NCBI RefSeq assembly: GCF_009914755.1
Contig: NC_060926.1
DNA: 64,000 nucleotides
DNA from: the human T2T-CHM13v2.0 reference genome, Homo sapiens
Strand: one strand, 5' to 3'
Below, piece after piece: positions 38,371-40,307 of this stretch. The notes beneath the pieces were generated by a model. The model saw only the letters and a list, made by a program, of their open reading frames with translations. It searched no databases and was not told the origin of the DNA. The number at the start of each line of letters is the position of its first letter. Position 1 is the stretch's first letter. Position numbers and translations under genes: made by a program.

Positions 38371-39150
38371 TCTGCCTGTGGGAAGAGCAATTTTCCTGAG
38401 CGGGTTTGGGCTGATTGTTCTTACTTCTCTGCAACAAGAGAGGGTAGAAGCTTACTGTGTGGTTTTGTCCACAGTGCCTTAGGGAGCTAGCCTGGTTATG
38501 TATCTCAGGCTCGCTCCCCTCCCTCTCCACCCCCGGCCTTCCTCTTTCCTCTTTCCACCTTTGCAAAAAAGAGCAAGATGTCCAGGCTCCTGAGGTCTCA
38601 GCTTGCAGAGCTGGTCATTAGCCCTTTGTGTCCTGCTAACCACCTTTCATCTCCTCTACCTGCTGGTGTCCGCTTTCCCTATTAGCATCTCTCGGCTCTT
38701 TGCAGAGCCCTCGGCCTCTTTGTGGCCAGCTTGGGTTGTTTGTCAGATGATGGCTGAGAGATGCACACTCAGGGGAGGGTGGCTCTGACCAGGAGCGCTC
38801 ACATTTTCCATGCCAGGTGCCAGGCATCTCTCTCCTCTCCCACCCCAGGGGCAGCCAGGTTTAGGTCACCTGGCATGGAGGCAGACAGTTGATAGCCCGG
38901 TCCCTAAATTTGGGGCCTTTGAAGCCCTGGTGTTGCCTTTCAGTTCCCCTCCAAGGGTGAAATGGGAACTGGCTCACCGGCAACTTTTATGCCTAAGCAA
39001 GAAGCCTGCTGAGGAATTCCTGGTCTCCAGAAGCTCACCCTCAGGCCCAGGATTCTCTGGTCCAACAGCCTCCACTGTTGGTCGGTCAAACAAACGCCCT
39101 GGGATTCCCAGGAACATCCTGCTGCCTTCATCGTCCGCATACTAAATCAT

Positions 39151-39592
39151 CAATCCAACGAGGCAGCCACTCGCCACACAGGGCCATTTAAGGTTACATT
39201 AAATTGATATTTATAGTATATAATATAAATTTCTATTAATAAAAATTAAATAAAAAATAACACTTTAGCCACCATTCTTATTTTTTATTGTCAGTAGAAT
39301 TTTTTTTTTTTTTTTTTTTTTGAGAAAGGGTCTTGTTTCGTCACCCAGGCTGGAGTGCAATGGCACAATCTCTGCTCATTGCAGCCTTAACCTTCCAGGC
39401 TCAGGCAATCCTCCCACCTCAGCCCCACAAAGTGCTAGGATTACAGGCATGAGCCACCCGTGCCTGGCCAATTTTAGCCACCTTTCAAGTGCTCCATAGT
39501 CACACATGGCAAGTGGCTACTGTACTGGACAGCGCAGATAGAGAACATTTCCATATGCAGAACATTCTTTTGGACAGCACTGATCTATACAG
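39151..39592 (-). mobile_element. MER3-like hAT MITE interrupted by an Alu monomer (39300-39469, minus strand)
   Basis: gcagccactcgccacacagggccatttaa...tttagccacc | Alu | ttttagccacctttcaagtgctccatagtcacacatggcaagtggctactgtactggacagcgcagatagagaacatttcca. Confidence 0.8.
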
Positions 39593-39768
39593 CCAGAAAT
39601 TCCAGTATCTTACAGACCATCTCTTCCTGCTACGAAGCCTTGAAGCTCCCTTGACCTTTCAAGTGAATTCATTTGAGTTCCCAAAATGCCACGGCCTGTT
39701 GGGACTGGAGGCCACCAGGCAAAGGATGCCTCCGAAGAGGTGTCCCCTGTAAAATTCACCATCACCAT

Positions 39769-39936
39769 GGCCAGGCATGGTGGCTCATGCCTGTAATCCC
39801 AGCACTTTGGGAGGCTGAAGTGGGAGGATCACTTGATCCTGGAAGGTTGAGGCTACAGTGAGCTGAGATTGTGCCATTGCACTCCAGTCTGGGTGACAAA
39901 ACAAGACCCTATCTCAAGAAAAAAAAAAAAAAAAAA
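39769..39936 (+). mobile_element. Alu monomer (FRAM-like), part of inverted arm 2
   Basis: ggccaggcatggtggctcatgcc...gaccctatctcaag plus A tail; single ~150-bp arm. Confidence 0.9.
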
Positions 39937-40307
39937 CTAATAAAAAATAAGAAAGGTGGCTAAAATTTTTATTTTATTTTTATTAACAGAAATTTATATG
40001 TGATATAATATAAACATCAATTTAATGTAACTTTAAATGGCCCTGTGTGGTGAGTGGCTGCTTTGTTGGATAGATGATTTAGTATGAGGATGATGAAGGC
40101 AGCAAGATGTTTCAGGGAAGCCCAGGGCGTTTGTTTGGCCGACCAACAGCAGAGGCTGTTGGAGCAGAGAATCCTGGGCCTGAGGGTGAGCTTCTGAGAT
40201 GAACAATGGTGCTTACTTTTCTACACAGTGGAGAATGCAAGACCTGGGAGATTCATGGTGTGTGTAAATGTCAAGGCTTCATTCCATTTGCAAAGGATGG
40301 AACTTGG

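What the first reader, a model, noticed from the sequence alone, without database searches (positions are those of the whole stretch)
39028..40196. ~440-bp inverted duplication in intron 2 that would fold LBH pre-mRNA into a long hairpin with non-Alu dsRNA
Seen: arm 1 (39028-39469) and arm 2 (39769-40196) are reverse complements around a 299-bp spacer. The outer 186 nt align without gaps with 16 mismatches (~91%); 7 of these are G-U wobbles in the sense transcript, so 177/186 positions can pair, and several others are A-C mismatches. The outermost ~120 bp match no repeat I recognise, so repeat annotation does not explain the structure. The stem continues through half a MER3, an AT-rich tract and an Alu monomer (~88%). 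Established: long intramolecular dsRNA is a substrate for ADAR and can be sensed by MDA5/PKR or diced; long inverted repeats are also DNA-unstable. Inference: a locus-specific dsRNA, uniquely mappable in its outer part, inside an autoimmune-associated gene; it could affect editing, splicing or small-RNA production.
Basis: partly seen in the sequence, partly recalled or inferred. Interest (0 to 1): 0.8.

Follow-up and report, generated by a model that had tools for sequence, protein, structure and literature searches.

The report
Old inverted duplication in LBH intron
A stretch of about 440 bases in the second intron of the human LBH gene was copied backwards right next to itself millions of years ago, so the unspliced RNA should fold into a long imperfect hairpin, but nothing found here suggests it is more than one of the many harmless intronic hairpins of this kind.

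Summary
The arms are 39028-39470 and 39768-40196 around a 299-nt spacer. They show 393 matches, 37 mismatches and 19 gap columns.

The outer 125-179 nt occur only twice in the whole assembly, as the two arms. The RNA folds into one long stem: -766.6 kcal/mol against -330.7±13.3 for 12 shuffles.

Arm 1 is the parent. Together with the start of the spacer it forms one old palindromic DNA-transposon copy, split by a monomer-length Alu with a 14-nt target-site duplication. Arm 2 is a later inverted copy that starts exactly at the Alu's 5' end. The copying happened long after the Alu inserted, because 9 of 10 Alu CpGs decayed identically in both arms.

The divergence looks neutral:
- Sense G-U versus A-C mismatches are 13 versus 12.
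- The antisense strand folds equally well.
- Mismatch spacing is random.

The stem is 90% paired, its longest perfect helix is 32 bp, and it lies deep in an intron. I found no evidence of editing, sensing or a link to disease. It is an ordinary new member of a known kind, of low interest.

The parts
39028..39470 (+). Arm 1, the parental copy of the inverted duplication. A 3-nt extension to 39024 is possible across a 1-nt bulge.
   Evidence: It is the parent because it is contiguous with the other half of the same old repeat and with the Alu's second target-site duplication.
39028..39152 (+). Outer segment of arm 1 with no other copy in the genome
   Evidence: Own-genome search gave 2 of 2 candidates, which are the two arms, even at E<=10. 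The same holds for 39028-39206. The search is word-based and cannot exclude a very old repeat.
39153..39277 (+). Left half and AT-rich interior of an old palindromic DNA-transposon-like repeat (MER3-like; name recalled). It ends in the left target-site duplication at 39264-39277.
   Evidence: A profile of 29 genomic copies matches model positions 66-133 at 39153-39211 (E 6.5e-4) and, weakly, 103-154 at 39227-39271 (E 2.2). In 5 of 29 copies a left-half hit lies directly upstream of the right half. The TSD motif is shown.
39278..39321 (-). Degenerate A-rich tail of the Alu monomer, read on the - strand. It includes a T22 run at 39300-39321.
   Evidence: Sequence. The same tail structure is present in arm 2.
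39322..39469 (-). Monomer-length Alu (148 nt) in arm 1
   Evidence: Rfam SRP model hit at 39320-39468 (-), 40.2 bits. BLAST against other Alus: positions 1-68 resemble left monomers and 2-148 resemble right monomers.
39470..39768 (+). Spacer, which forms the hairpin loop (299 nt)
   Evidence: 39601-39768 is single-copy in the genome.
39473..39486 (+). Right target-site duplication of the Alu monomer (TTTAGCCACCTTTC)
   Evidence: One search finds 3 matches in the window (0 of 100 shuffles reach 3): 39264-39277 (1 mismatch), 39473-39486 (exact) and 39951-39964 on the - strand (exact, the copy in arm 2).
39474..39589 (+). Right half of the same old palindromic repeat, lying in the spacer
   Evidence: Profile model positions 157-274, E 1.8e-40. 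The own genome gives 379 candidates, of which 40 were scored; the 39 other than the query's own place are 77-88% identical.
39768..40196 (+). Arm 2, the derived inverted copy. It consists of the Alu monomer (39769-39916, +), the A-rich tail (39916-39950), a copy of the left TSD (39951-39964), the left half of the old repeat, and the unique segment.
   Evidence: The inner end coincides with the Alu 5' end plus 1 nt. There is no second TSD and no repeat right half on its inner side.

Best explanation
This is a DNA-level local inverted duplication that is evolving neutrally.

Original locus: unique DNA, followed by an old palindromic DNA-transposon copy into which a monomer-length Alu had retrotransposed, leaving a 14-nt target-site duplication.

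The copying event: much later, a break about 300 bp downstream was repaired by fold-back or template-switch synthesis. This copied about 430 nt of the opposite strand (Alu monomer, tail, left half of the old repeat, about 125 nt of unique DNA) and then rejoined the chromosome. I put this at roughly 20-40 Myr ago, inferred from 9.2% arm divergence and recalled primate substitution rates.

Inner junction: it lies exactly at the Alu 5' end. This is either chance (1 nt of microhomology) or the footprint of priming on a pre-existing inverted Alu.

Consequence today: when LBH is transcribed, intron 2 should fold co-transcriptionally into a hairpin of about 445 nt that is about 90% paired with a 299-nt loop. 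Like other intronic inverted-repeat hairpins, it is probably edited promiscuously by nuclear ADAR and then destroyed with the excised intron.

Shown: the duplication, its polarity, its timing relative to the Alu, its uniqueness, the predicted fold and the neutral-looking divergence. Inferred: the repair mechanism, the absolute age, folding and editing in vivo, and the absence of a selected function.
For: Structure and significance: (z about -33 against 12 shuffles).

Polarity:
- The family profile built from 29 genomic copies places model positions 66-133 in arm 1 and 157-274 at the start of the spacer.
- The Alu monomer between them is flanked by TTTAGCCACC[A/T]TTC at 39264-39277 and 39473-39486.
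- Arm 2 carries a copy of the left site only. That copy preserves the exact ancestral 14-mer.

Timing:
- Measured against a majority consensus from 47 left-monomer and 30 right-monomer alignments, the two Alu copies share 17 differences.
- All 10 consensus CpGs are lost in both copies, 9 of 10 in the same way.
- Private changes are 10 in arm 1, 3 in arm 2, and 3 positions where all differ.

Neutrality:
- The 37 mismatches are 25 transitions and 12 transversions.
- Sense G-U against sense A-C is 13 against 12 (binomial p = 1.0).
- The antisense MFE is -773.3 against -766.6 for the sense strand.
- Mismatch and indel spacing fits random placement: the longest clean run is 32, P(random >= observed) = 0.80.
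- In the unique part, 4 of 6 CpGs were lost in arm 2 only, which balances the Alu-part excess in arm 1.

Ordinary kind:
- A genome-wide einverted-based scan predicted 5 million human dsRNAs, and 96.4% of those in protein-coding genes are intronic (PMC11838218, passages).
- Immunogenic dsRNAs are reported as depleted of introns (PMC12695637, abstract and passages).

Mechanistic precedent: sequenced human inverted duplications have a spacer and 2-8 bp of inverted microhomology at 13 of 21 junctions. In 3 of 21 they have inverted LINE or SINE homology at the spacer edge (PMC3907307, passages).
Against: - No other primate genome and no RNA data could be examined, so age, fixation, editing and neutrality rest on within-locus patterns only.
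- Only about 7 of 128 non-CpG Alu positions are shared differences, yet 9 of 10 CpG losses are shared. By my rough estimate that is more shared CpG loss than simple decay before the duplication predicts. Arm-to-arm gene conversion or an atypical source Alu could be involved, in which case the age is underestimated.
- Arm 1's unique part kept 6 of 6 CpGs (O/E 0.51 against 0.24 for the intron) while arm 2 kept 2. This could hint at hypomethylation or constraint of the parental copy.
- Private changes in the Alu part are lopsided: 10 against 3 (p = 0.09), and 7 against 1 in the first 69 nt (p = 0.07).
- A junction within 1 nt of the Alu 5' end is improbable for a random breakpoint, by my estimate about 1-2%.
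- Intronic inverted-repeat dsRNA can reach the cytoplasm in lariats, even in wild-type cells (PMC13189227, abstract and passages). 'Intronic' therefore does not by itself mean inert.
Confidence: 0.75

Rival explanations
1. The hairpin is a functional, locus-specific dsRNA element. Its editing, sensing by MDA5/PKR, dicing into small RNAs or effect on intron processing would modulate LBH or innate immunity, and would contribute to the autoimmune association of the gene.
For: - The stem is long and very stable.
- The arms are uniquely mappable.
- Only 299 nt separate the arms, which favours folding.
- LBH is called an RA risk gene (PMC5859417, abstract in search listing).
- Intron lariats carrying inverted repeats can reach the cytoplasm (PMC13189227).
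- Arm 1's unique part retains CpGs above background.
Against: - Divergence shows no bias towards pairing in the sense strand (13 G-U against 12 A-C), and the antisense strand folds equally well.
- Pairing is 90.4% and the longest perfect helix is 32 bp. That is below the >300 bp and >96% paired class singled out as putative MDA5 substrates (PMC11838218).
- The location is deep in an intron.
- Rfam gives only sub-threshold Alu-type miRNA hits.
- LBH is absent from the text and the 2 held supplementary files of the immunogenic-dsRNA study.
- Searches returned no relevant paper. Zero papers hold LBH with inverted repeat and dsRNA; with A-to-I, ADAR and intron; or with edQTL. Two unrelated reviews hold LBH with RNA editing and ADAR1.
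- The RA risk is ascribed to an enhancer SNP.
Confidence: 0.07
2. The duplication arose together with the Alu insertion, as a by-product of target-primed reverse transcription. It would be a twin-priming-like event, or a second 3' end copying the fresh cDNA and running on into flanking DNA. Alternatively it arose by retrotransposition of a read-through Alu transcript (3' transduction).
For: Arm 2 begins within 1 nt of the Alu monomer's 5' end and runs through its tail into the 3' flank. That is where a copy templated on a free cDNA end, or an Alu-initiated transcript, would start.
Against: - All 10 consensus CpGs of the Alu were already lost, 9 of 10 identically, and 17 differences from the consensus are shared by both copies. 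The Alu was therefore old when it was copied.
- Arm 2 has no poly(A) at its distal end (40196) and no flanking target-site duplication of its own. The 18-mer upstream of arm 2 has no second copy in the window.
- The 3' flank contains T5 runs soon after the tail (sequence). By established knowledge these would terminate RNA polymerase III.
Confidence: 0.03
3. The whole 1.17-kb unit is a DNA transposon or MITE with long terminal inverted repeats, not a local duplication.
For: It has terminal inverted repeats of about 440 nt around a short core. Part of the arms belongs to a palindromic DNA-transposon family.
Against: - The outer arm sequence has only 2 places in the genome, the two arms, and the distal spacer has 1, so there is no family.
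- The arms contain a primate Alu with its tail.
- The old-repeat halves and the Alu's target-site duplication are contiguous only across arm 1 and the spacer.
- The 8 nt flanking the outer ends differ (GGTCTCCA-side against TGAGATGA-side, sequence), so there is no target-site duplication.
Confidence: 0.02
4. Variant of the main reading that concerns only the origin. A sense Alu already sat at 39769. After a nearby break it paired intrastrand with the inverted Alu of arm 1 (homology-primed fold-back or break-induced synthesis). Synthesis ran on through the tail and 280 nt of flank, and the end was rejoined. The inner 'junction' would then simply be the resident Alu's 5' end.
For: - It explains why the duplication ends exactly at the Alu 5' end.
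- The 18 nt upstream begin with AAAA, as Alu target sites often do (recalled).
- Arm 2's first 69 Alu positions are closer to the consensus than arm 1's: 1 private change against 7.
- In 3 of 21 sequenced human inverted-duplication junctions, inverted LINE or SINE repeats lie at the spacer edge, including a 296-bp pair of inverted AluY (PMC3907307, passages).
Against: - Both copies share the same monomer architecture, the same tail and the same direction of CpG loss at positions 20, 48 and 53. Any resident-Alu remnant must therefore be confined to the 5'-most few dozen nt.
- The 7 against 1 asymmetry is not significant (p = 0.07).
- No second copy of the putative target site was found (1 match in the window, itself).
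Confidence: 0.3

Closest known systems
Intronic inverted-repeat (IR-Alu type) hairpins, the bulk substrates of ADAR editing in human pre-mRNA
   Same: Two inverted copies lie a few hundred nt apart in one intron. The predicted stem is long and imperfect, and one third of each arm is Alu. It is expected to be edited in the nucleus and discarded with the intron. In the genome-wide scan, 96.4% of predicted dsRNAs in protein-coding genes are intronic (PMC11838218).
   Different: About two thirds of each arm is not Alu, and the outer 125-179 nt are unique in the genome. The arms are copies of one another made by a local duplication, rather than two independent retrotransposon insertions. At 91% identity over about 445 columns it pairs better and further than the 5 other Alu pairs in this window, which are 72-82%.
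Fold-back or template-switch inverted duplications with a single-copy spacer (Hermetz et al. 2014, PMC3907307)
   Same: An inverted copy lies next to its parent, separated by a non-duplicated spacer. There is little or no microhomology at the junction, or alternatively inverted SINEs at the spacer edge.
   Different: The scale is about 430 bp with a 299-bp spacer. The published cases are Mb-sized duplications with spacers of 766 bp to 70 kb and terminal deletions. This one was resolved by rejoining locally, is ancient, and is not a pathogenic CNV.
Long, highly paired dsRNAs proposed as MDA5 substrates (>300 bp, >96% paired; 2,018 predicted; PMC11838218)
   Same: The length exceeds 300 bp and the structure is intramolecular.
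   Different: Pairing is 90.4% counting G-U and the longest perfect helix is 32 bp. It is intronic, so it is not expected in exported mRNA.
Palindromic non-autonomous DNA transposons (MITE-like; MER3, name recalled)
   Same: Part of each arm derives from such an element, and the element itself is palindromic (reverse-strand hit of the profile, E 1.6e-8).
   Different: The large inverted repeat is not the element's own terminal repeat. It includes an Alu and unique DNA and has no other genomic copies.

Membership tests
Intronic inverted-repeat dsRNA (ADAR-substrate class) | Two reverse-complementary segments within one transcript, within a few kb | tested here: met
   Both arms lie in LBH intron 2 (hub annotation), 299 nt apart.
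Intronic inverted-repeat dsRNA (ADAR-substrate class) | Predicted stable long duplex, well beyond shuffled controls | tested here: met
   MFE -766.6 against -330.7±13.3 for 12 shuffles. 404 of 447 arm-1 nt pair with arm 2.
Intronic inverted-repeat dsRNA (ADAR-substrate class) | Clusters of A-to-I editing sites on both arms in RNA-seq | not testable with these tools
   No RNA data or editing database was on hand. Literature searches with LBH found nothing relevant.
Putative MDA5-activating long dsRNA (criteria of PMC11838218) | >300 bp and >96% of nucleotides paired | tested here: not met
   449 alignment columns: 393 Watson-Crick plus 13 G-U, which is 90.4%.
Putative MDA5-activating long dsRNA (criteria of PMC11838218) | Present in exported RNA (exon or 3'UTR) | tested here: not met
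   Deep intronic by the hub's RefSeq table: the flanking exons end at 22758 and start at 45682.
DNA transposon with long terminal inverted repeats | Multiple genomic copies with the same termini | tested here: not met
   The outer arm sequence has 2 places in the genome, which are the two arms.
DNA transposon with long terminal inverted repeats | Target-site duplication flanking the outer ends | tested here: not met
   The flanks at 39020-39027 and 40197-40204 differ (sequence).
miRNA or other curated RNA family (Rfam 15) | Match at or above the family's gathering score | tested here: not met
   10 of 10 matches in 38000-41200 are below gathering. The hits are SRP and Alu-derived mir-3135, mir-1268 and mir-619.
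Fold-back or template-switch inverted duplication | Inverted copy adjacent to its parent with a non-duplicated spacer, templated on local sequence | tested here: met
Fold-back or template-switch inverted duplication | Inverted microhomology of 2 bp or more, or inverted repeats, at the spacer/duplication junction | tested here: inconclusive
   Only 1 nt is shared at the inner junction. The outer junction has TCTCCA against TCT-CA. An inverted-Alu-primed version cannot be told apart without an outgroup.
Retrotransposition product (3' transduction or twin priming) | Poly(A) at the 3' end of the copy, and a target-site duplication flanking the copy | tested here: not met
   There is no A-run at 40196 and no second copy of the upstream 18-mer. 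The Alu was already CpG-depleted when it was copied.

The most novel reading that the evidence does not exclude
The hairpin is a primate-lineage-specific intronic dsRNA that is heavily edited in LBH-expressing cells. Its uniquely mappable arms would make it a single-locus reporter of nuclear ADAR activity. When editing or lariat turnover fails, it would become a cytoplasmic dsRNA ligand or a small-RNA source that feeds back on LBH or on interferon signalling. This would add an RNA-structure component to the autoimmune association of the locus. The unusual CpG retention in the parental unique segment (6 of 6, O/E 0.51) would then mark a constrained or hypomethylated element.
Probability: 0.03. 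Interest if true: 0.6.

Novelty: new member of a known kind. Interest (0 to 1): 0.2.

Why it matters
If the ordinary reading holds, the value is modest.
- It is a cleanly dissected fossil of a small fold-back or template-switch repair event. Parent and copy can be told apart, and the event can be ordered relative to an Alu insertion.
- It is an intronic hairpin whose outer arms can be mapped uniquely, unlike Alu-only hairpins, which is convenient for measuring editing at a single locus.

It does not open a new question. Genome-wide catalogues of such predicted dsRNAs already exist, and current evidence places disease-relevant immunogenic dsRNAs in mature mRNAs rather than deep introns.

Tried and rejected

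2. Literature on this locus:
- LBH + inverted repeat + dsRNA: 0 papers.
- LBH + A-to-I + ADAR + intron: 0 papers.
- LBH + RNA editing + ADAR1: 2 unrelated reviews, seen as listing only.
- LBH + edQTL: 0 papers.
- LBH does not occur in the main text of PMC11838218, PMC12695637 or PMC13189227.
- LBH does not occur in the 2 supplementary files held for PMC12695637.
Whether it is already catalogued there is therefore open.

3. Origin coupled to the Alu's retrotransposition: rejected, because 9 of 10 CpG losses and 17 differences are shared.

4. Transposon with long terminal repeats: rejected on copy number and flanks.

5. Known RNA family or miRNA: all 10 Rfam hits are below gathering and are Alu-type.

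6. Recent arm-to-arm gene conversion: no long clean tract. The longest is 32, with P = 0.80 under random placement. Older conversion is not excluded.

7. A 3' target site for a hypothetical resident Alu: the 18-mer has only its own match.

8. Extending the old-repeat profile into the outermost 125 nt: no hit, even with filters off and E<=10.

9. Cross-species dating: no primate genome is held (the own genome 'has no relatives here'), so it was not done.

10. PMC10766186 and other structural-variant papers were seen as listing and abstract starts only and were not used.
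Full report
**1. Observation**

The repeat finder reports 39028-39227/39997-40196 (200 nt, 91%) and 39301-39458/39779-39936 (158 nt, 90%). A gapped alignment of arm 1 with the reverse complement of arm 2 runs 39024-39470 against 40199-39768. 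It has 393 matches, 37 mismatches and 19 gap columns. The spacer is 299 nt.

Folding 39020-40205 gives one long stem at -766.6 kcal/mol. Twelve dinucleotide shuffles give -330.7±13.3, and reversing arm 2 gives -347.4. In the MFE, 404 of 447 arm-1 nucleotides pair with arm 2.

Within the 64-kb window these are the two best inverted pairs of 120 nt or more within 3 kb. The other 5 of 7 are Alu-Alu pairs at 72-82%.

**2. Anatomy**

- The outer 179 nt (39028-39206) and the outer 125 nt (39028-39152) each have exactly two places in the 3.1-Gb assembly, the two arms. For the outer 125 nt this holds even at E<=10. The search is word-based and would miss very old repeats, so 'unique' here means 'no recognisable paralogue'.
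- The Alu parts match Rfam's SRP model at 39320-39468 (-) and 39770-39917 (+), below the gathering score as Alus do.
- Against other Alus, positions 1-68 resemble left monomers (about 81-90%) and positions 2-148 align to right monomers (about 69-80%). It is therefore a monomer-length Alu, and I did not determine its subfamily.
- The first 120 nt of the spacer are a dispersed old repeat. The own genome gives 379 candidates, of which 40 were scored; the 39 other than the query's own place are 77-88% identical. The rest of the spacer is single-copy.
- A profile built from 29 of those copies with their upstream flanks matches model positions 157-274 at 39474-39589 (E 1.8e-40). It matches model positions 66-133 at 39153-39211 in arm 1 (E 6.5e-4), and the same segment in arm 2 on the minus strand (E 0.0019). 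It also matches its own reverse strand, so the element is palindromic.
- In 5 of 29 copies a BLAST hit to arm 1's inner part lies directly upstream of the right half.
- I recall this family as MER3. No tool here names repeats.

**3. Which arm is the parent**

The Alu monomer in arm 1 is flanked by TTTAGCCACCATTC (39264-39277) and TTTAGCCACCTTTC (39473-39486). The window holds only one further match, on the minus strand at 39951-39964 in arm 2, and that match is exact (3 matches, and 0 of 100 shuffles reach 3).

Arm 1 plus the start of the spacer is therefore one old repeat copy, split by an ordinary Alu insertion with a 14-nt target-site duplication. Arm 2 is a copy of the left side only, and it has kept the ancestral state of that site. 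On its inner side arm 2 has neither the repeat's right half nor a second target site. Its inner end falls at the Alu 5' end plus 1 nt.

**4. When the copy was made, relative to the Alu**

I polarised the Alu part with a majority consensus from 47 left-monomer and 30 right-monomer alignments taken from the window and the fetched loci.

| Class of position | Count |
|---|---|
| Agree with the consensus in both arms | 114 |
| Differences shared by both arms | 17 |
| Private to arm 1 | 10 |
| Private to arm 2 | 3 |
| All three differ | 3 |

All 10 consensus CpGs are lost in both arms, 9 of 10 identically. The Alu was thus already old and CpG-depleted when it was copied. This rules out an origin coupled to its retrotransposition. 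Arm 2 also lacks a distal poly(A) and a target-site duplication of its own.

**5. Absolute age (inference)**

The Kimura distance between the arms is 0.092. By segment it is 0.096 for the unique part, 0.058 for the AT-rich repeat part and 0.110 for the Alu. At recalled primate neutral rates of about 1.2-2.2e-9 per site per year, 0.046 per arm gives roughly 20-40 Myr.

There is also an internal yardstick. Alu copies in the same data have a median non-CpG divergence of 8.3-8.8% from the majority consensus. The arms' private changes in the Alu part are 13 of 147 and 6 of 147.

**6. Signs of selection or conversion**

I found none.
- The mismatches are 25 transitions and 12 transversions.
- 13 give G-U in the sense RNA and 12 give A-C, which would be G-U in the antisense RNA (p = 1.0).
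- The antisense strand folds slightly better (-773.3) than the sense strand.
- The 45 mismatch or indel events in 438 collapsed columns are spaced as random placement predicts: the longest clean run is 32 and P = 0.80.
- In the unique part all 4 CpG differences are losses in arm 2. With the 10 against 3 excess in arm 1's Alu, this gives roughly balanced independent decay.

Three caveats remain.
- Shared CpG loss (9 of 10) is higher than I would expect from only about 7 of 128 shared non-CpG differences. Old gene conversion or an unusual source Alu may be involved.
- Arm 1's unique part kept 6 of 6 CpGs (O/E 0.51, against 0.24 for the intron).
- The 7 against 1 asymmetry in the first 69 Alu positions (p = 0.07) is unexplained.

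**7. How it arose (inference)**

The architecture is parent, 299-nt single-copy spacer, then inverted copy, with about 1 nt of microhomology at the inner junction and TCTCCA/TCT-CA at the outer one. This is the signature of fold-back or template-switch repair on a small scale.

Sequenced human inverted duplications show the same layout. They have 2-8 bp of inverted microhomology at 13 of 21 junctions, and inverted LINE or SINE homology at the spacer edge in 3 of 21 (PMC3907307, passages).

A junction exactly at the Alu 5' end is unlikely by chance. A pre-existing inverted Alu that primed the fold-back would explain it. However, the shared monomer architecture, tail and CpG pattern confine any such remnant to the 5'-most few dozen nt. 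Only an outgroup genome can decide this.

**8. What it does (inference)**

When LBH is transcribed, arm 2 emerges 299 nt after arm 1, so a hairpin should form co-transcriptionally. By established knowledge such long imperfect duplexes are deaminated promiscuously by nuclear ADAR1 p110 and ADAR2. They then leave with the excised intron.

The stem is 90.4% paired counting G-U, and its longest perfect helix is 32 bp. Only 2 Watson-Crick runs reach 20 bp or more (32 and 23). It is 16.3 kb from exon 2 and 5.5 kb from exon 3, and both arms lie in one intron. I therefore expect no effect on splice-site choice or back-splicing.

Literature context:
- An einverted-based scan predicted 5 million human dsRNAs. 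Of those in protein-coding genes, 96.4% are intronic. Non-repetitive ones occur at about 2 per Mb, and 2,018 are longer than 300 bp and more than 96% paired (PMC11838218, passages).
- On the other side, intron lariats with inverted Alus do contribute to cytoplasmic dsRNA, especially without DBR1 (PMC13189227, abstract and passages).
- LBH is called an RA risk gene (PMC5859417, abstract start in listing). A review ascribes the risk to an enhancer SNP and to methylation (PMC6587113, passages).
- No paper found links LBH to editing or dsRNA.

**9. Verdict**

The structural part of the interpretation (a locus-specific, partly non-Alu hairpin) is supported. The functional part is unsupported and, on the internal evidence, unlikely.

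This is a new, well-resolved member of a known kind: an ancient local inverted duplication that gives an intronic inverted-repeat hairpin.

- Interest: 0.2.
- Open because the tools could not reach them: primate orthologues, editing and small-RNA data, human polymorphism, and the closed supplementary tables of the dsRNAscan preprint.

Noticed in passing
window 39028-39195 versus 40029-40196: The parental unique segment keeps 6 CpGs (O/E 0.51). Its inverted copy keeps 2 (O/E 0.21), and intron 2 as a whole has O/E 0.24. All 4 differences are losses in the copy. This may be chance, or it may reflect germline hypomethylation or constraint of the parental segment.
   Followed up: partly
window 39322-39469 versus 39769-39916: 9 of 10 Alu CpG losses are shared by the arms, but only about 7 of 128 non-CpG positions are shared differences. 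Private changes are lopsided: 10 in arm 1 against 3 in arm 2, and 7 against 1 in the first 69 nt. Old arm-to-arm conversion, or a remnant of a separate resident Alu, could explain this.
   Followed up: partly
window 40614-40937: A full-length dimeric Alu on the + strand (Rfam SRP hits at 40631-40745 and 40765-40912). It is flanked by a perfect 16-nt direct repeat, AAACCTCTTTCCTTTA, at 40614-40629 and about 40922-40937. It is inserted into another, unidentified repeat. Its right monomer is 74% complementary to arm 1's Alu, making it a weak competitor for pairing.
   Followed up: no
window 39342-39401 (+), 39836-39895 (-), 39759-39807 (-), 40763-40890: Sub-threshold Rfam matches to the Alu-derived miRNA families mir-3135, mir-1268 and mir-619. 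All are far below gathering, at 20-50 bits against 80-83. They reflect Alu sequence and are not miRNA genes.
   Followed up: yes
window 39474-39589 and loci L004-L032: The old repeat in the spacer is itself palindromic. The profile hits its own reverse strand at E 1.6e-8, and several genomic copies show inverted internal hits. The left half in arm 1 is much more degenerate than the right half in the spacer.
   Followed up: partly
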